From: Nannocystis pusilla
Lineage (GTDB): Bacteria > Myxococcota_A > Polyangia > Nannocystales > Nannocystaceae
DNA: 64,000 nt
Assembly (NCBI RefSeq): GCF_051105105.1
Contig: NZ_CP185339.1
Direction: 5' to 3' (one strand)
Numbering within the stretch: position 1 is the first letter of the stretch; the number at the start of each line of letters is the position of its first letter. Made by a program: the position numbers and the translations under genes. This document shows positions 4,774-38,515 of the stretch, one piece after another. The notes beneath the pieces were generated by a model. The model did no database searches, was not told the DNA's origin, and saw only the letters and a program-made list of their open reading frames with translations.

Positions 4774-6028
4774 GTGACGAGCGTCTCGCGGCCGGTGGCG
4801 GCGGCGGCTCCGTGGGCGGAGTCGATGTTCTCGTTCGGGGTCACCGGCACCAACGGCAAGACGTTCGACGACGTGGATGCTGGCGGCGGCGGTGCGGGCG
4901 GCCGGGCTGTCGGTGCTGCGGGTGTCGACGCTCGGGGTCGCGTTCGACGACGAGGCGTGGCCGCGCGGCAAGCGGTTCACCGATTTCGTCGCCACGCTGG
5001 CGCGAGCGCACGAGCGCGGGGCGAGGCACGCGGTGATCGAGACGACCAGCCACGCCTTGGCGCAGGGCTACGCGCGCAGCTGGCGGTTCGACCTGGGGGT
5101 GTTCACCAACCTGTCGGTCGACCACTTCGGCACGCACGGCAGCTGGGAGCACTATCTGGCGGCCAAGGCCCAGCTGTTCATGCACCTGGGGCCCGGGCGC
5201 GCGGCGGTGCTCAACGCGGCCGACAAGCACGCGCTGTTCGTCGACCAGGCGATCCCCGCCGACGTGGAGCGGCGGTGGTTCGCGGCGCCGGGTCGTGGAC
5301 CGCGGCTGCGCGCGGCGGACCTCGAGGCCGAGACGATCGAGGTCGAGGCGACCGGGACGCGCGTGGTGCTGCGCCCGTCGCCGGCCGCGACGGCGCTCGG
5401 CGGGGCGCTCTTTACGAGGATGGTCGGCGAGGTGTTCGCCGAGAACGCGCTGGCGGCCGCGCTCGCGGGGCTCGCGGCCGGGCTGCCCGGCGAGGCGGTG
5501 GCACGCGGGCTCGCCGAGTGCCCGATCGTGCCGGGGCGCTTCGAGGTGCTGGCCCACGCGCCCGGCGGGCCGACGATCGCGGTCGACTACGCGCACTCGC
5601 CCGACGCGCTGACGCACACGTGCGCGACGGCGCGGCGGCTCGCGGGGCCGCAGGGACGGGTGCTCGTGGTGTTCGGCGCCGGCGGCAACTCGACCCCGGA
5701 GAAGCGCGCGCCGATGGGCGCGGCAGTCGGCGCGCTGGCCGACGTGGCGCTGGTGACGAGCGACAACCCGCGCGACGAGGCGCCCGAGGCGATCGCGGCG
5801 GCGGTGGTGGAAGGGCTGCAGGGCGGTCGCGCGGGCTGGTCGATCGTGCTCGACCGCGGGCAGGCGATCGCGGAGGCGGTCGCGGCGGCCGGAGCCGGCG
5901 ACGTGGTGGTGATCGCCGGCAAGGGCCACGAGGAGGGCCAGACGGCGCGCGGGCAGACGCGGCCGTTCTCCGACGTCGCTGAGGTGCGGCGGCTCGTCGG
6001 CGGTTGGGATGTGCCTGTAGGGACATGA
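4774..6028 (+). CDS. Mur ligase family protein (MurE/MurF-like central and C-terminal domains) with an apparent +1 frameshift near 4864; N-terminal domain absent
   Basis: The P-loop GVTGTNGKT (about 4840-4866) is in frame 1. The continuation MLAAAVRAAG..., DYAHSPDAL, VFGAGGNS..KRAPMG, SDNPRDE and AGKGHE are in frame 2 from 4877. Removing one base in acgttcgac restores KTSTTWMLAA. Only about 20 aa precede the P-loop, and the start (GTG 4774 or ATG 4825) is uncertain. Confidence 0.6.
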
Positions 6029-6187
6029 CCGAGAGGTCATGCCGCCGGGGCGGCTCGTGCGCGCAGGTCCTCATGGCCATCCGACCGTGGAGCTCGTCGA
6101 ACGCGGCGCAATTCGAGGGCGCCCGCGCATGTCCCCTGCGGTGGGGCGGCGGCGGTCCTTCCGCTGCAGGCGACCGCGCGCGGCGTG

Positions 6188-6215
6188 GACATGTCCTTTC
6201 GGGCATGTCCATGCG
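6188..6215. repeat. GGACATGTCC repeat pair downstream of the LDLa lipoprotein stop
   Basis: The sequence ggacatgtcctttcgggcatgtcc has two cores 14 bp apart. Confidence 0.7.
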
Positions 6216-6221
6216 GTCATC

Positions 6222-6834
6222 TCAGCAGTCGGCCTCGTCGGAGCCGTCGGGGCAGTCGTCGGCCGTGTCGCACTTCCAGGTCGCCGGGATCTCGGTGCCG
6301 TTGGTGCAGACGAAGGCCTCGAGGCCACAGCCGGTGACCTCGTCGGAGTTGTCGAGGCAGTCGGGGACCTCGTCGCAGGCCCAGGTCGCGGGGATCTCCT
6401 TCTTGTCGGTGCAGGTGAAGGCCTCGAGGCCGCAGCCGCTGACCTCGTCGGAGCCGTCGGGACAGTCCGGGTTCTCGTCGCAGACCCACGCGGGGTTCTT
6501 CGAGCGCGGTGCCGTCGCTGCAGACGAAGCCGTCGCCGGTGGTGTCCGCGGTGGCCTCGGTGGTGCCCGCGGTGGCCTCGGTGGTGCTGGTCGGGGCCTC
6601 GGTGGTCGTCGGCGCGCTGGTGCCGGTGTCGGTCTCGGTGCCGTCGGTCGTCTCGCCCGCCGTGCCGGTGGTGGTCGTGTCGTCCGTGGTGCCGGCGGTG
6701 CTCGTGGTCGTGGTCGAGTCGGGGCCGATGTTGGTATCGGAGAGACCGCCGAGGTTGATCGTGCAGCCGGCTGTGGCCACGCCCTGGCTCATGAGGGCGG
6801 CGACGGACAAAAATTTGGCGAGGTCGATGTTCAT
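6222..6834 (-). CDS. Secreted lipoprotein with a Thr-rich linker and three LDL-receptor class A-like Cys repeats; frame disrupted near 6505
   Basis: Signal/lipobox MNIDLAKFLSVAALMSQGVATAGC, then a TTTTSTAGTT linker. The C-terminus, read in a second minus frame, gives GCGLEAFTCTDKKEIPATWACDEVPDCLDNSDEVTGCGLEAFVCTNGTEIPATWKCDTADDCPDGSDEADC-stop, which matches the LDLa pattern CxxxxFxCxxGxCIxxxWxCDGxxDCxDxSDE. The two parts sit in different frames. Confidence 0.6.
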
Positions 6835-6902
6835 CGTGCCGGCGAATGTGCCACGGGGCAGCGCGCAGGGGCGCGCGCGGCCCATGTCCCGGGGCGCGCG
6901 AT

Positions 6903-7403
6903 TCAGGTCGGTGCGAGGCGGACGGTGACCTCTGCGCTCGGGTCGAACGGCGAGCCCTTGACGTTGGCGATGCATTTGACGACCAGCCGCACCCGCGGAT
7001 CACGCGTGGCGGCGTTCGGATCGGGGAAGCCGTTGCGCGCGAGGATGCCGGCGAGGTCGACCTCGCTCACCATCCACGGCTGGGTGATGACCTGCCCGGG
7101 CTTGAGGTCGCACGGCATCTTGAGGCAGCTGTCCGAATAGCTGACGTTCGGATCGGGATCCTTCTCGGCGCGCGCGAGGTTCGGCGAGTCGATGTCGTCC
7201 TTCTTGATGTACAGCCACACCTCGTACTTGGTCGCCAGCAAGGTGCACTCCTGCTGCGCGGTGATCACCATCGTGCCCTTGAGGACCGAGTCGGTGACCG
7301 GGAAGGTGGCGGTCTCCGCCGGTTGACGCTCGATGACCGTGATGGCGACGCTCGCCATGTTCTTGCCGCCGAGGAACTGCTTGGCCTTGTCGAAGAATCC
7401 CAT
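6903..7403 (-). CDS. Hypothetical protein (166 aa), weakly SpoOM-like
   Basis: Clean ORF MGFFDKAKQFLGG... with lower GC than its neighbours. No confident family assignment. Confidence 0.5.
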   Translation of the reverse strand: MGFFDKAKQFLGGKNMASVAITVIERQPAETATFPVTDSVLKGTMVITAQQECTLLATKYEVWLYIKKDDIDSPNLARAEKDPDPNVSYSDSCLKMPCDLKPGQVITQPWMVSEVDLAGILARNGFPDPNAATRDPRVRLVVKCIANVKGSPFDPSAEVTVRLAPT

Positions 7404-7591
7404 GGCGACGAGAGGTACCACGTCGGTGCAGGGAGCGACGATTCCGCGCAGCGATCGGAGAGGTCTCGGACAGTCGGGATTCGTGTTGGTCGAGGCGGCC
7501 GTGGGCGACTCGCTCGGAGCCTGAGGACGGCCGCTTGTCGCGGTAATCGATGTTCCGCGGCGGCGGCCCACCTCGACCGACACGCATGATT

Positions 7592-8677
7592 TCAGCCGAG
7601 GCTGACGCGGACGGGCGGGGCGAAGGCCGGCGGGCGATCGCTGACTGCGGCGCCGTGCACTGCGGCCTGGTAGCGGTCCCCGAACATCGCGTAAGGGGTG
7701 GTGACGGGCGGCGTACTGGCCTCGTCGAGGCGGCGCAGGAGCTCGGGCGGGATCTGGAGGTCGAGCGCGCCGAGGTTGTCCTCGAGCTGCTCGGGCCGGG
7801 TGGCGCCGAGGATCACGGAGGTGACGCCCGGACGCGTGAGCACCCACTGCAGCGCGACCTGGGCCATGCTGCGCCCGAGCTCGCCGGCGACGGCCTCGAG
7901 CGCGCCGACGATCTGCCAGTTGCGCTCGGTGAAGAGGCTGAGCGACTTGCCCGTGCCAGTGCTGAGCCGGCCGCTGCCGCCGTCGCTGTTCGGGCGGTAC
8001 TTGCCCGACAGGAGGCCGCTGGCGAGCGGGCTCCAGGCGGTGATGCCCATGCCGAGGTTGGTGGCGAGCGAGGTGAACTCGGCCTCGATGCCGCGCTCGA
8101 TCAGGGAGTATTGCAATTGCAGGTTGACGATCGGCGCGAGGGCGTGAGCCTCGGCGTAAGTGTGGGCCCGCGCGGCGTACCAGGCGGGGACGTCGGACAG
8201 GCCGGCGTAGCGGATCTTGCCGGCGCGCACGAGGTCGTCGAAGGCGCGCACGACCTCCTCGGCGGGGGTGATCCGGTCCCAGGTGTGAAGCAGGTAGAGA
8301 TCGAGGTAGTCGGTCCGCAGGCGCTTCAGCGAGGCCTCGAGGGCGCGGATCATGTTCTTGCGGCCGTTGCCGCCGGCGTTGGGGTCGCGCTCGGCGAGGT
8401 TGTAGCTGTACTTGCTGGTGAGCACGAGGCGATCGCGGTTGCCGTCGGCGATGAACTCGCCGAGCAGCGACTCGCTGGTGCCGCGGGTGTACAGATCGGC
8501 GGTGTCGATGAAGTTGCCGCCGGCCGCGACGTAGCGATCGAACACGGCGCGCGCGGCCTGCTTGCTCGAGCCCCAGGCGCCGTACGGGCCGTCGGTGCCG
8601 AAGGTCAAGGTGCCGAGCGCGAACGGGCTGACGCGCAGGCCGGAGCGGCCGAGCAGGTAGTACTGATCGAGAGACAT
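7592..8677 (-). CDS. Aldo/keto reductase family oxidoreductase
   Basis: 361 aa with AKR motifs: FIDTADLY, GLSDVP and IVNLQLQYSLIER-like segments. Confidence 0.85.
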   Translation of the reverse strand: MSLDQYYLLGRSGLRVSPFALGTLTFGTDGPYGAWGSSKQAARAVFDRYVAAGGNFIDTADLYTRGTSESLLGEFIADGNRDRLVLTSKYSYNLAERDPNAGGNGRKNMIRALEASLKRLRTDYLDLYLLHTWDRITPAEEVVRAFDDLVRAGKIRYAGLSDVPAWYAARAHTYAEAHALAPIVNLQLQYSLIERGIEAEFTSLATNLGMGITAWSPLASGLLSGKYRPNSDGGSGRLSTGTGKSLSLFTERNWQIVGALEAVAGELGRSMAQVALQWVLTRPGVTSVILGATRPEQLEDNLGALDLQIPPELLRRLDEASTPPVTTPYAMFGDRYQAAVHGAAVSDRPPAFAPPVRVSLG

Positions 8678-10202: not shown

Positions 10203-11220
10203 CACGCCGTCGGCGGCGGTGAAGCTTCTGGCGCTGCGCGTTGGGCCGCCGCGGGAAGACTGCAGAGAAGCCGACGTCGGGGAAGGCCCAGCGGACCTGC
10301 GAGCCCTCGCGCCCGACCTCGACCGGCTGGAGCGCCCCGGCCGCGACCGCGGCGAGCACGGCCTCCTGCTGATCGAGGTGCTCGCGGAGCTCCTCGGCGA
10401 GCGCGTCGACGCGCGGGTGCGGCTCGCGATCGGGGGCGAAGGCGGTGCGCAGCGCGGCGAGCCCGGCGGGGGGGACGGCGACGGCGGCGAGGCGATCGGC
10501 GAGGTCGAGGATCCGGTCGCGCTCCTCGGGGAGGAACCACGGAGCGACGAGGTCGCCCAGCGGACCGAAGGTGGCGACTGCGACGGCGGGATCGATGGTG
10601 TCCGGGAGAGCGAGGGCGCTGGCGAGGACGTCGTGGACGCCGCGCGCGAGGTGAAAGCGGGCCTCGACGAAGGTGCGGCGCGCGGGGTCGTCGCCGGCGA
10701 GCCGCTCGACGCGAAGGGCGGACTCTTTGAAAAAAGCCGCGGCCACGGCGAGGTACTCGTGTCCGTATTCGCCGCGCGTGAGGGCCCGCGCGGCGTAGAG
10801 CTGCAGGATGTCGGCGAGGGCCAGGTGCAGCGCGGCGAGCTCGTCGGGGCCGGCCGTGCTCCGGGCGGCCGCCTCGATGCCGTCGAGGGCGACGAGCCGC
10901 CGGAGCCATTCGCCGTCAGGTCCGTCGAGCCGCGGCAACAGCTCGGGACGCTCGCGCTCGAGGCGGACGAAGGCGTCGCGGACTCTTTGGTAATCCCGGG
11001 GGGTCCAGGAGGCGTCGGCGGCCGGGAGGTCGTAACTCCGCCGGAGCTCGCTGGTCGGCTCGCTTCGGGGCGCGTCGATGCTGGCAGGAGCCGCGGTCTC
11101 GGCGCTGCGGCGGCAAGCCGCGAGCAAGACGAGGAGGAGCACCAGGCTTCGACCCGCGCCCCGAGAGCGACGGCGCGGCGCGACCGGGTTCGAAGCGAAC
11201 ATCTGCGATGGACGATACAA
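10087..11220 (-). CDS. Hypothetical lipoprotein
   Basis: Signal/lipobox RSLVLLLVLLAAC. The translation is plausible up to about WAFPDVGFS (near 10240), then becomes Arg-rich and likely out of frame. Confidence 0.5.
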   Translation of the reverse strand: MYRPSQMFASNPVAPRRRSRGAGRSLVLLLVLLAACRRSAETAAPASIDAPRSEPTSELRRSYDLPAADASWTPRDYQRVRDAFVRLERERPELLPRLDGPDGEWLRRLVALDGIEAAARSTAGPDELAALHLALADILQLYAARALTRGEYGHEYLAVAAAFFKESALRVERLAGDDPARRTFVEARFHLARGVHDVLASALALPDTIDPAVAVATFGPLGDLVAPWFLPEERDRILDLADRLAAVAVPPAGLAALRTAFAPDREPHPRVDALAEELREHLDQQEAVLAAVAAGALQPVEVGREGSQVRWAFPDVGFSAVFPRRPNAQRQKLHRRRRRGHDHPHARAQAARRRLAPRHLQRPRPADRRPHARRRAA

Positions 11221-11481: not shown

Positions 11482-13348
<1,867 letters not shown>

Positions 13349-14710: not shown

Positions 14711-14790
14711 GCGTTCGGGGCATGTCGCGGAGGACATGTCCCGACGGGACGGCGCGTCGGGACATGTCACGTGGGACATGTCCCGCGCGC
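14711..14790. repeat. 14-bp-phased GGACATGTCC array (5 units, one degenerate)
   Basis: CATG cores at 14721, 14735, (14749 degenerate), 14763 and 14777, between the repeat-protein stop and the rlmE stop. Confidence 0.85.
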
Positions 14791-18720: not shown

Positions 18721-18860
18721 GGACATGTCAGATCGGACATGTCGGTGCGGACATGTCGGGGATGGGCATGGGCGCAGCGGCCCGATCGGTCTGCGCGTGA
18801 AGGAGTGCGGGGGCGCTGCTTAAAAGACATGTCGCCAGGGGCATGGCCCGGGCGACATGT
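18721..18860. repeat. Two GGACATGTC arrays (14-bp phase) between convergent genes
   Basis: Cores at 18724, 18738, 18752 and 18767. A second cluster at 18808-18860 reads aaaagacatgtcgccaggggcatggcccgggcgacatgtctc. Confidence 0.85.
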
Positions 18861-33769: not shown

Positions 33770-33832
33770 GATGTCCCCGGCGACATGTCGCCGGGGACAT
33801 GTCTGCTAGGACATGGCCGGAAGGGCATGCTC
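33770..33832. repeat. 14-bp-phased GGACATGTC array (5 units)
   Basis: Cores at 33770 (atgt), 33784, 33798, 33812 and 33826, immediately after the pmbA stop. Confidence 0.85.
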
Positions 33833-35813: not shown

Positions 35814-37212
35814 TCAGCGCGGCTCGTCGTCGGGGCAGACGAAGCGCTCGAAGCGGCGGGCGAGCACCGAGTCGGGCAGGCGCGCGGCCAGGCGCTGGGC
35901 GGCGGTCGCGGCGTCGGCGGGGCGGCCTTGCAGGCACAGGAGCTCGACCGCGGCGGCCTCGCGGGCGTCGACGAGGGCGCCGCGCGGGAACTGGCGCGCG
36001 TGGGCGTCGAGGAGCTGGGCGGCGCCTGCGGGGTCGCGGGCATCGAGGCGGGCGCGGGCGCGGTCGAGGAGGCCGACCTCGAGGGCGAGGTCGTCGCGGG
36101 CGGGCAGGCGCGTGGATGTCTCTCGGGACAGCAGCTGATCGTAGGCCGGGCGCGTGACCCGGCCGGCGGGCGCGGGTGCGGCTGTCCTCGGGGACAGGCC
36201 GGCCGCCGGGCCCGGCGACAGGGGGGCCGTCGCGCGGGTCCACACGCCGGCGACCTGCGCGCGGAGGTGGGCGAACGAGACCGGGGAGACGGGGGACCGC
36301 AGCGCAGTGGCGGGCGCTTCGGTGGGCGAGATCGAAGCTGTCTCTCGGGACATGTCGTCGGACGAAGGCGTGGCTGTCTCTCGGGACATGTCGTCGGGCG
36401 AAGGCTTGGCTGTCTCTCGGGACATGTCCCCGCTGGAACGAGAGCCAGCTGTCTTTGCGGACAGGTCCTCGATCTGCGCGGCGGCGGCCCGGCCCGGGGC
36501 CTGGCGGGGGGCGACCGCGACGACGGCGGTGGCGCCGGCGACGACGAGGGTGGTCATGACGCCGGCGCGCGCGGTGGTCCAGGCGGCGGCGACGGTGGCG
36601 AGCTTGCCGTGGCCGAAGAGCGGGACCATCACGGCCCAGGTGCGCGAGGCGGCGCCTTCCGGGGGCTCGTCGCGGCGGCGGCTCTCGGCGACCTCGACGG
36701 CCAGCAGCTCGGGGCTGGCGGCCAGCTCGAGCAGGCGGGCGCGCGCGAGGCGGAGCCGCGAGTAGACGGTGTTGAGCGGCAGCTCGAGCTCGGCGGCGAT
36801 CTCGGGGCCGCTCATCCCGAGCAGCTCGGTCAGCTCCCACACCTCGCGGGTGCCGCGAGGCAGGCCGGCGAGCAGGCGCTCGAGCAGGCGGGCAGCGTCG
36901 TGGCGCTCCTGCGGGGCCTCGCCGACGTGGCCGGTGAGGTCGCCGAGGGCGGCGATCCGGCGGGTCCGGCGGGCGACGCCGCGGTGCCAGTGGGAGGCGA
37001 CGCGGCGGGTGACGCCGTACAGCCAGGCGCGCGCCGAGACCTGGTAGTGGACCTGGTCGAAGCGGCGGTAGGCGGTGAGGAAGACGTCCTGGACCACGTC
37101 GTCGCGGGCGGCCGCGGGGACGCCGAAGTACTTCGCGGCCGACCACACGAATTGGAACTTCTCGGTCGTAGATGGCGCGAAAGCGCGCTTCTCGGTCGGT
37201 GGCGAGCAGCAT
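35814..37212 (-). CDS. ECF sigma factor continuing in-frame into an anti-sigma (single-TM) domain; frameshift near 37155
   Basis: Sigma region 2 (DVVQDVFLTAYRRFDQ) and region 4 (VWELTELLGMSGPEIAAELELPLNTVYSRLRLAR) are followed by TM LATVAAAWTTARAGVMTTLVVAGATAVVAVA and an anti-sigma-like C-terminal domain. The N-terminus MLLATDREARFRAIYDREVP is in the adjacent frame. An extra base in the ccaattcg homopolymer explains the shift. Confidence 0.65.
36330..36470. repeat. GGACATGTC-family repeat array with 36-bp period, in-frame within the anti-sigma periplasmic linker
   Basis: Cores at 36351, 36387, 36423 and 36459. It translates as DMSRETAKPSPD / DMSRETATPSSD / DMSRETASISPT. Degenerate copies lie at 36100-36180. 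Confidence 0.75.
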
Positions 37213-38454: not shown

Positions 38455-38515
38455 GATGAATGTCTGCGAGGACATGTCGTGAAAGACATGTCCTCGCAGC
38501 CATGCATAAGCCAGG
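38455..38515. repeat. GGACATGTC repeat cluster
   Basis: The sequence gaatgtctgcgaggacatgtcgtgaaagacatgtcctcgcagccatgcat. Confidence 0.75.

What the first reader, a model, noticed from the sequence alone, without database searches (positions are those of the whole stretch)
6222..6834. Bacterial lipoprotein carrying LDL-receptor class A-like cysteine repeats
The C-terminus reads GCGLEAFTCTDKKEIPATWACDEVPDCLDNSDEVTGCGLEAFVCTNGTEIPATWKCDTADDCPDGSDEADC. This is two to three consecutive units fitting CxxxxFxCxxGxCIxxxWxCDGxxDCxDxSDE, the calcium-binding LDLa fold. That fold is typical of animal receptors and rare in bacteria. It follows a lipobox and a Thr-rich spacer.
Basis: partly seen in the sequence, partly recalled or inferred. 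Interest (0 to 1): 0.5.

Follow-up and report, generated by a model that had tools for sequence, protein, structure and literature searches.

The report
Myxobacterial lipoprotein with reduced-cysteine LDLa repeats
A Nannocystis (myxobacterium) gene encodes a small membrane-tethered protein ending in three calcium-cage modules of the type found in animal LDL receptors, but each with two disulfides instead of three; it is real, conserved in its bacterial family and uncharacterised, yet a variant of a well-known fold, not a new one.

Summary
The quoted peptide is present on the minus strand, and the gene spans 6834..6222. The signal peptide, lipobox and Thr-rich linker lie in one frame and the repeats in the next. 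The cause is one extra A at 6499-6500, absent from six other Nannocystis species. Three other conserved genes within 14 kb are split in the same way, so an assembly indel is more likely than a pseudogene.

After correction the 203-aa protein scores 89 bits (E 1.7e-25) against Pfam PF00057, in three stretches. The AlphaFold2 model of the window's own fragment has mean pLDDT 90. All 47 significant Foldseek PDB matches are LDLR, megalin, VLDLR, ApoER2, CD320 or TMPRSS6 chains.

Every calcium-ligand position is kept. Each unit has only four cysteines (C2, C4, C5, C6). The C1-C3 pair is missing in all orthologues, and the units abut without linkers.

Orthologues occur throughout the Nannocystaceae. 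The only conserved neighbour is an N-terminally truncated MurE-like ligase.

Canonical six-Cys units occur in other myxobacteria. Two-Cys units occur in Marine Group II archaeal surface proteins.

The most likely function is a Ca2+-dependent binding head on a flexible acidic tether at the cell envelope. This is inferred. I rate it a new variant of a known kind, of moderate interest.

The parts
6222..6834 (-). Whole gene: ATG at 6834, TGA stop at 6224-6222. It has 203 codons plus one extra base, so it reads in two frames in this window.
6763..6834 (-). Signal peptide with lipobox (MNIDLAKFLSVAALMSQGVATAG|C). Cys24 is invariant in all orthologues and is followed by hydrophobic residues (TINL, IIIS, LIVS), so an uncleaved signal anchor is the alternative reading.
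6538..6762 (-). Linker of 75 aa, low complexity, acidic and Thr-rich (32 T, 12 D+E, 0 K+R). It is predicted disordered. In Enhygromyxa orthologues (GD)n repeats take its place.
6499..6500 (-). Site of the single extra A (CTCGAAGAAC against CTCG-AGAAC in six other species). It shifts the frame inside unit 1.
6432..6528 (-). LDLa-type unit 1 (FVCSDGTALENPAWVCDENPDCPDGSDEVSGC after correction). There is no cysteine upstream of the F.
6327..6419 (-). LDLa-type unit 2 (FTCTDKKEIPATWACDEVPDCLDNSDEVTGC).
6225..6314 (-). LDLa-type unit 3 (FVCTNGTEIPATWKCDTADDCPDGSDEADC). Its last Cys is the C-terminal residue.
6848..6853 (-). TGGCAC motif 14 nt upstream of the ATG. It is conserved upstream of the start codon in most orthologues. 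Role unknown.
4825..6028 (+). Context: convergent neighbour, a MurE-subfamily ligase lacking the N-terminal domain. It is the only gene that stays next to the LDLa gene across the family. In this window it is itself split by a 1-nt insertion near 4863.

Best explanation
The gene encodes an exported, membrane-tethered protein of a Nannocystis myxobacterium. An N-terminal signal peptide with a lipobox cysteine anchors it, most likely as a lipoprotein. A disordered, strongly acidic Thr-rich linker of about 75 residues follows. The C-terminus is a head of three directly abutting modules homologous to LDL-receptor class A (LDLa) repeats. Each module keeps the octahedral Ca2+ cage (the backbone carbonyl of the aromatic residue, D after C4, a backbone carbonyl two residues later, D before C5, and the D and E of SDE). 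It also keeps two of the three canonical disulfides (C2-C5, C4-C6). The N-terminal C1-C3 disulfide has been lost. By analogy with animal LA modules, the Ca2+-ordered acidic and aromatic surface would capture a basic (Lys/Arg or amine-bearing) ligand at the cell envelope in a Ca2+-dependent way, and the three rigidly joined modules would give avidity. Shown here: the homology, the cysteine pattern, conservation of the ligand positions, the confident predicted fold, conservation of the gene across the Nannocystaceae, and the frameshift with its context. Inferred: lipidation, actual Ca2+ binding, disulfide connectivity, and ligand capture. The frameshift in this window is most likely an assembly indel, so the gene is probably intact in the organism.
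For: PF00057 scores 89 bits, E 1.7e-25, with three stretches. phmmer against PDB sequences gives LRP2, VLDLR and LDLR with E down to 3e-103 summed. The residue alignments place the F, C2, I, W, C4, D, D-C5 and D-x-SDE in register, and E falls where C3 should be. AlphaFold2 gives pLDDT 88-94 for residues 100-201 of orthologue P0001 and below 50 for the linker. The window's own 91-aa fragment gives mean pLDDT 90.4 and pTM 0.71. Foldseek against the PDB returns 40 and 47 hits at E <= 1e-3. These are LA modules of LDLR, megalin, VLDLR, ApoER2, CD320 and TMPRSS6 at 32-47% identity. Twelve Cys and all the D/SDE positions are invariant in 12 diverse four-Cys triple-repeat sequences. The first unit never has a Cys before F, and the last unit always ends SDE-x2-3-C, in all 20 orthologues. 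This fits C2-C5 and C4-C6 pairing. Cysteines disappear in canonical pairs across prokaryotic variants: C1+C3 in the Nannocystaceae, and C4+C6 as well in MGII archaea. Orthologues with the same architecture are in all Nannocystis species, Enhygromyxa and Nannocystaceae MAGs. The lipobox regex passes in 15 of 20. The mature protein has 39 D+E against 3 K+R. On the frameshift: one extra A absent in six species, and three other conserved genes within 14 kb split by isolated 1-nt insertions at 98-99% flanking identity.
Against: There is no experimental datum for any bacterial LDLa protein; five targeted literature searches found nothing. The position C4+3, acidic in the lysine-binding LA4 of LDLR, is N, V or A here, so the lysine pocket is only partly conserved. 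Pairwise dN/dS over the LDLa region between species is 0.5-1.0, with very low dS in this GC3-saturated genome. This gives no independent support for purifying selection beyond the invariant core. Hydrophobic residues follow the lipobox Cys, which is atypical for lipoproteins and allows a signal-anchor reading. The frameshift could be real in this strain.
Confidence: 0.6

Rival explanations
1. Envelope Ca2+ store or structural polyanion. The three Ca2+ cages and the acidic linker buffer or hold divalent cations at the membrane surface and recognise no specific partner.
For: The composition is extremely acidic: 39 D+E against 3 K+R, with no basic residue in the linker. Enhygromyxa orthologues replace the Thr-rich linker with long (GD)n tracts. 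The third acidic residue of the lysine pocket (C4+3) is not conserved.
Against: Three Ca2+ per 180-residue protein is a poor buffer. The aromatic residue before C4, which forms the ligand platform in animal modules, is kept in 34 of 36 units. The number of units (2-4) and their order are conserved, which suggests a specific surface.
Confidence: 0.2
2. Peptidoglycan-directed tether functionally coupled to the neighbouring truncated MurE-like ligase. The lipoprotein reaches from the membrane through its linker and binds amine-bearing stem peptides (meso-DAP or Lys), or a product of the ligase.
For: The MurE-subfamily gene lacking its N-terminal domain (TIGR01085 290 bits, match starting at profile position 88-113) is adjacent to the LDLa gene in 19 of 20 orthologous loci. 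Every other neighbour changes. The pair survives a change of relative orientation: convergent in Nannocystis, same strand in Enhygromyxa.
Against: Convergent genes are not co-transcribed. One product is cytoplasmic and the other exported. Adjacency within one family can be inherited synteny. No binding evidence exists.
Confidence: 0.1
3. Pseudogene. The +1 frameshift is genuine, and this strain makes only a 252-aa out-of-frame product without LDLa modules.
For: The window as given has the extra base, and the longest ORF (6217..6975, minus strand) runs off into an Arg-rich nonsense tail.
Against: The downstream frame remains open to the native stop, with 97% protein identity to the RBIL2 orthologue. 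Three other conserved genes within 14 kb are split by isolated 1-nt insertions: a 655-aa gene at 98-99% flanking identity, the MurE-like gene, and a 408-aa ORF. This points to a systematic assembly error.
Confidence: 0.1

Closest known systems
Animal LDL-receptor class A (LA, complement-type) modules of LDLR, VLDLR, ApoER2, LRP1/2 and CD320 (Pfam PF00057)
   Same: The module is about 35 residues. F-x-C2, I-P-x-x-W-x-C4-D, D-C5-x-D-x-S-D-E-x2-3-C6 are in register. All Ca2+-ligand positions are present. The predicted fold has a beta-hairpin followed by a Ca2+-binding loop with a short helix. Identity to solved modules is 41-47%.
   Different: C1 and C3 are absent, leaving two disulfides instead of three. 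There is no inter-module linker: C6 of one unit sits exactly where C1 of the next would be (C-x6-C2). 'CDE' replaces the usual 'CDG' after C4. The host is a bacterium, and the carrier is a 203-aa lipoprotein with no EGF or beta-propeller domains.
Canonical six-Cys LDLa units in other Myxococcota (for example Kofleriaceae L027, Polyangia L039, Myxococcota L042)
   Same: Same phylum and same Ca2+ motif, in tandem arrays in secreted or lipoproteins.
   Different: Those keep C1 and C3 (for example [35 protein letters not shown]). The window's family has lost them in all 20 orthologues.
LDLa-like units in PGF-CTERM surface proteins of Marine Group II archaea (Poseidoniales; L028, L056-L058)
   Same: They are PF00057-positive (204 bits for L056). 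They share the F-x-C2 ... D-C5-x-D-G-S-D-E core and form tandem arrays on the cell surface.
   Different: Only C2 and C5 remain (C4 is replaced by N, and C6 is absent). The proteins are giant, 1100-1400 aa with dozens of units, and archaeal.
Glucosidase II beta-subunit (PRKCSH) N-terminal LDLa-like Ca2+ domains
   Same: It is an LDLa-derived Ca2+-binding module outside the receptor context. It appears as weak Pfam hits and in the Foldseek tail.
   Different: The score is far below the family cut-off for the window protein (8.7 bits against 34.9). It is a eukaryotic ER protein.

Membership tests
LDL-receptor class A domain (Pfam PF00057) | Profile HMM match above the curated gathering score | tested here: met
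   89.4 bits against a cut-off of 24.1, E 1.7e-25, three stretches
LDL-receptor class A domain (Pfam PF00057) | Six conserved cysteines per module (C1-C3, C2-C5, C4-C6) | tested here: not met
   Only C2, C4, C5 and C6 are present. E or L sits at the C3 position, and there is no Cys before F in unit 1. The same holds in all 20 orthologues.
LDL-receptor class A domain (Pfam PF00057) | Ca2+-coordinating cluster: aromatic-x-C4-D-x3-D-C5-x-D-x-S-D-E | tested here: met
   WVCDENPDCPDGSDE, WACDEVPDCLDNSDE and WKCDTADDCPDGSDE. The D, D and DE positions are invariant in alignment A3.
LDL-receptor class A domain (Pfam PF00057) | LDLa three-dimensional fold | tested here: met
   This rests on a predicted structure only. 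Mean pLDDT is 90.4. All Foldseek PDB hits at E <= 1e-3 are LA modules.
LDL-receptor class A domain (Pfam PF00057) | Disulfide connectivity of the remaining cysteines (C2-C5, C4-C6) | not testable with these tools
   Model coordinates are not exposed. Indirect support comes from cysteines being lost only as canonical pairs across prokaryotic variants.
LDL-receptor class A domain (Pfam PF00057) | Ca2+ binding and Ca2+-dependent folding or ligand binding | not testable with these tools
   This needs ITC, 45Ca overlay or NMR on recombinant protein.
Bacterial lipoprotein (PROSITE PS51257-type signal) | Basic n-region, hydrophobic h-region, and a lipobox ending in Cys within the first 15-35 residues | tested here: inconclusive
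   K7; FLSVAALMSQGVATAG; ATAG|C at residue 24. A PS51257-like regex is met in the window and in 15 of 20 orthologues. The -3 residue is T, not L/V/I. Hydrophobic residues follow the Cys. No SignalP or LipoP was available.
Bacterial lipoprotein (PROSITE PS51257-type signal) | Lgt/LspA processing and acylation | not testable with these tools
   This needs palmitate labelling or globomycin.

The most novel reading that the evidence does not exclude
Prokaryotes hold a graded series of LDLa-type Ca2+ cages: six-Cys in Polyangia and Kofleriaceae, four-Cys in Nannocystaceae, two-Cys in Marine Group II archaea. The disulfides are dispensable in canonical pairs and the Ca2+ cage is the invariant core. 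If the reduced forms are ancestral, the animal LDLa module would have a prokaryotic, disulfide-poor origin. In the Nannocystaceae, the four-Cys lipoprotein would also be a functional partner of the conserved truncated MurE paralogue, for example as a Ca2+-dependent envelope or peptidoglycan tether in bacteria that lack Braun's lipoprotein.
Probability: 0.12. Interest if true: 0.6.

Novelty: new variant of a known kind. Interest (0 to 1): 0.35.

Why it matters
LDLa modules are textbook animal ligand-binding units, and the three disulfides are usually treated as part of their definition. This bacterial family is conserved across the Nannocystaceae and keeps the Ca2+ cage with only two disulfides and no inter-module linkers. 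Together with the two-Cys archaeal units, it gives a natural deletion series for asking what the minimal LDLa fold needs. It also offers material for tracing where the animal module came from. The protein is a small, tractable candidate for the first biochemical characterisation of a prokaryotic LDLa protein. The practical stakes are modest. The Pfam domain is already pre-computed on these 'hypothetical proteins', and no phenotype is attached.

Tried and rejected
(1) Pairwise NG86 dN/dS between six Nannocystis orthologues was 0.5-1.0 in the LDLa region, with dS only 0.06-0.15. It is uninformative in a GC3-saturated genome, so I did not use it as evidence.

(2) I considered reading the conserved upstream TGGCAC as a sigma-54 -24 element. 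I rejected it. The TT(G/C)G that follows is 1-2 nt away instead of 5, and in Nannocystis the motif lies only 14 nt from the ATG.

(3) The sigma-70 promoter and intrinsic terminator scan of 6000-7700 found nothing relevant.

(4) A profile search with the four-Cys triple-repeat alignment over 5.8 billion proteins was swamped by animal LDLa proteins and short metagenome fragments. No named bacterial member emerged.

(5) Six literature searches for bacterial or myxobacterial LDLa found nothing relevant.

(6) The AFDB50 fold library was not available, and model coordinates are not exposed. Disulfide and Ca2+ geometry could therefore not be measured.

(7) A whole-window GC3 frame-switch scan to count frameshifts was ambiguous, because operon junctions look the same. 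The frameshift argument rests on the direct comparison with Nannocystis sp. RBIL2.

(8) NCBIfam has no model for the protein. The small 166-aa upstream gene has no Pfam or NCBIfam hit and is confined to the genus.

(9) P0006, a Mur-ligase/LDLa 'fusion', looked like a clue to functional coupling. It sits on a single 3.1-kb metagenome contig and looks like a deletion or assembly collapse of the Enhygromyxa-type tandem arrangement.

Full report
**What is in the sequence**

The region 6222-6834 carries a gene on the minus strand. Translating the three minus-strand frames shows the ATG at 6834 opening MNIDLAKFLSVAALMSQGVATAGCTINLGG. A Thr-rich tract of about 75 residues follows.

The mechanical ORF list therefore shows a 252-aa ORF that runs into an Arg-rich nonsense tail.

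I aligned the DNA with the orthologous genes of six other Nannocystis species. The cause is one extra A at 6499-6500 (window GCGCTCGAAGAAC, all others CTCG-AGAAC). Removing it gives a 203-residue protein that is collinear with the intact 201-aa 'hypothetical protein' of Nannocystis sp. ILAH1/RBIL2. Identity is 95% in the MAFFT alignment and 82% by BLASTP over the whole protein. The sequences are listed.

**Is the frameshift real?**

The window is about 96.5% identical in DNA to Nannocystis sp. RBIL2 over the 16.6 kb I could compare. Within those first 14 kb, three other conserved genes are split between frames by isolated one-base insertions, with 94-99% protein identity on either side:
- a 655-aa gene near 12402;
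- the MurE-like ligase near 4863;
- a 408-aa ORF near 10226.

Several of these insertions are duplicated A's after GA or TA. Four broken conserved genes in 14 kb is not credible biology. I conclude that the assembly carries systematic indel errors and that the gene is most probably intact in the organism. Only read-level data can settle this. A GC3 frame-switch scan of the whole window was too ambiguous to add anything.

**Is it LDLa?**

Yes at the level of sequence homology and predicted fold.
- The corrected protein and the uncorrected in-frame 91-aa fragment both score about 89 bits against Pfam PF00057 (E about 1e-25, gathering cut-off 24.1), with three matched stretches.
- NCBIfam has no model for the protein.
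- phmmer against all PDB sequences returns 59 distinct sequences. They are LRP2, VLDLR, LDLR, LRP4, ApoER2, LRP1, LRP6 (a fusion construct), complement factor I, CD320, LRAD3, relaxin receptors and TMPRSS6.
- AlphaFold2 on orthologue P0001 gives pLDDT 88-94 for residues 100-201 and below 50 for the signal peptide and linker.
- The window's own fragment gives mean pLDDT 90.4 and pTM 0.71, with a beta-hairpin and a short helix per unit.
- Foldseek against the PDB returns 40 and 47 hits at E <= 1e-3, all LA-module chains at 32-47% identity.
- Global TM-scores are low (0.3-0.4) because the relative orientation of modules differs. This is expected for multi-module queries.

**Where it departs from the family**

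The residue alignments put F, C2, I-P, W, C4-D, D-C5 and D-x-S-D-E in register with megalin modules, but E aligns with C3. The first unit has no cysteine upstream of its F, and the last unit ends …SDEADC. Each unit therefore has four cysteines.

The cysteine between units lies three residues after SDE (a C6 position) and exactly six residues before the next C2 (a C1 position). Two facts favour reading it as C6. The first unit lacks such a cysteine in all 20 orthologues, and the last unit always has it. The pairs left are then the canonical C2-C5 and C4-C6, the C1-C3 pair is lost, and the inter-module linker is reduced to zero.

All six Ca2+-ligand positions defined for LDLR LA5 are present in all three units. 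This mapping is from my own knowledge of Fass et al. 1997: Trp carbonyl, Asp after C4, a backbone carbonyl two residues later, Asp before C5, and the Asp and Glu of SDE. These positions are invariant in an alignment of 12 diverse four-Cys triple repeats. I could not measure disulfide or cage geometry because model coordinates are not exposed.

**Distribution**

A scan of one genome per prokaryotic species found 71 loci.
- Full-length orthologues occur in all seven Nannocystis species recovered, in three Enhygromyxa salina strains and one Enhygromyxa MAG, and in several Nannocystaceae and 'Myxococcales' MAGs. They share the leader MKIDLKKFLA..A.MSQG…C, an acidic low-complexity linker, and 2-4 four-Cys units that end at the C-terminus.
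- The linker is Thr-rich in Nannocystis and (GD)n in Enhygromyxa. Its composition rather than its sequence is conserved.
- Over 237 LDLa-type units in these loci, 162 lack C3 and 72 have it, plus 3 that do not fit either class cleanly.
- Canonical six-Cys units occur in Kofleriaceae, Polyangia and other Myxococcota MAGs.
- Marine Group II archaea carry 1100-1400-aa proteins with dozens of units that keep only C2 and C5 (F-x-C-…-V-N-D-G-x-x-D-C-x-D-G-S-D-E). Pfam PF00057 scores 204 bits on L056, which also has a PGF-CTERM anchor, and 108 bits on L028.

Cysteines therefore disappear only in the canonical pairs. This is indirect evidence that the LDLa disulfide topology applies.

The counts are biased by the search patterns, which were derived from this family. 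A profile search of 5.8 billion proteins was dominated by animal sequences and revealed no named bacterial member. Six literature searches found no work on bacterial LDLa proteins.

**Anchor**

The window's N-terminus passes a PROSITE PS51257-like pattern (K7, no charged residue in the h-region, ATAG|C24), as do 15 of 20 orthologues. The Cys is invariant at position 20-25. Residue -3 is T, and hydrophobic residues follow the Cys. An uncleaved signal anchor therefore cannot be excluded. Either way the C-terminal head is extracytoplasmic and tethered.

The mature protein has 39 D+E against 3 K+R.

**Context**

In Nannocystis the gene lies 68 bp downstream of a genus-specific 166-aa gene with no family match. 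It is convergent with a 400-aa ligase that has Mur_ligase_M and Mur_ligase_C domains. This ligase scores 290 bits on TIGR01085 (murE), but the match starts at profile position 88-113, so it lacks the N-terminal domain. trpF, trpC and trpD follow.

Across 20 orthologous loci, the MurE-like gene is the only neighbour that stays, in 19 of 20. It is tail-to-tail in Nannocystis-type loci and on the same strand upstream in Enhygromyxa. This is the one contextual clue to function. I treat it as unexplained, since it could be inherited synteny.

**How it most likely works**

This part is inferred. A membrane anchor holds an extended polyanionic linker, and the linker presents a compact three-module head. 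Each module is ordered by one Ca2+. Its acidic rim and the conserved aromatic residue (present in 34 of 36 units) form the kind of pocket that animal LA modules use to clamp a lysine side chain. Three abutting modules would give avidity for a multivalent basic ligand.

The third acidic residue of the classical lysine pocket is not conserved, so the ligand may differ. The rivals are:
- a cation-holding structural polyanion;
- a peptidoglycan- or MurE-linked tether;
- a true pseudogene in this strain.

**Verdict**

One substantive correction applies: this is a four-cysteine, linker-less variant, so it fails the six-Cys criterion of the family while keeping the Ca2+ cage and the fold. I rate it a new variant of a known kind, of moderate interest (0.35). 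The frameshift that made it look odd is probably an assembly artefact.

Noticed in passing
window 6187-6210, 14732-14783, 18721-18758, 33795-33818, 36348-36468, 38470-38493 and others: The palindromic 10-mer GGACATGTCC (up to 1 mismatch) occurs 35 times against 1.6 expected. It often forms 14-bp-period arrays in intergenic DNA. One pair lies immediately downstream of the LDLa stop codon, and similar GGACATG/CATGTCC copies follow the stop in other Nannocystis species. It looks like a REP-like intergenic repeat family.
   Followed up: partly
window 6848-6853 (minus strand); L007-L019 upstream of the start codon: A (C)TGGCAC motif lies roughly 14-70 nt upstream of the start codon in most of the 20 orthologues, although the surrounding DNA is unalignable. 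TT(G/C)G usually follows after 1-2 nt. The spacing does not fit a sigma-54 -24/-12 promoter. The first 18 residues of the signal peptide (MKIDLKKFLA..A.MSQG) are also unusually conserved.
   Followed up: partly
window ~4863, ~10226, ~12402 (and 6499-6500): Isolated single-base insertions relative to Nannocystis sp. RBIL2 split four otherwise 94-99% conserved genes into two frames within the first 14 kb. Several are duplicated A's after GA or TA. This suggests systematic assembly indel errors across the window.
   Followed up: partly
window 4825-6028 (+): A MurE-subfamily ligase (TSDNPRDE motif, Mur_ligase_M and Mur_ligase_C) lacks the N-terminal UDP-MurNAc-binding domain. It is the only neighbour of the LDLa gene conserved across the Nannocystaceae, in 19 of 20 loci and in two relative orientations. 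Its substrate and role are unknown.
   Followed up: partly
L028:6528-9827, L056:4734-8771, L057:5829-10103, L058:1-2262, L051:1608-4202: Marine Group II (Poseidoniales) and Thermoplasmatota archaea encode giant surface proteins. L056 has a PGF-CTERM anchor and a sub-threshold bacterial-TSP3 match. They carry dozens of LDLa-like units that keep only C2 and C5 (FxCxDGxxIxxSxVNDGxxDCxDGSDE). PF00057 scores 204 and 108 bits.
   Followed up: partly
L072:1569-2240 (protein P0006): A 3.1-kb metagenome contig encodes an in-frame fusion of the first ~105 residues of the MurE-like ligase, a (GD)n linker and three four-Cys LDLa units. It looks like a deletion or assembly collapse of the Enhygromyxa-type tandem gene pair.
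   Followed up: partly
window 6903-7400 (minus strand): A 166-aa gene (MGFFDKAKQFLGGKN…VRLAPT) lies 68 bp upstream of the LDLa gene on the same strand. It is 92-100% conserved within Nannocystis, absent from the loci of other genera, and has no Pfam or NCBIfam match.
   Followed up: partly
L005:~8020 (Nannocystis pusilla Na p29): The orthologous gene in this reference assembly has a 2-nt gap near its start (GCCAA--TCTTG against GCCAAATTTTTG). This suggests that long-read indel errors affect other Nannocystis assemblies too.
   Followed up: no
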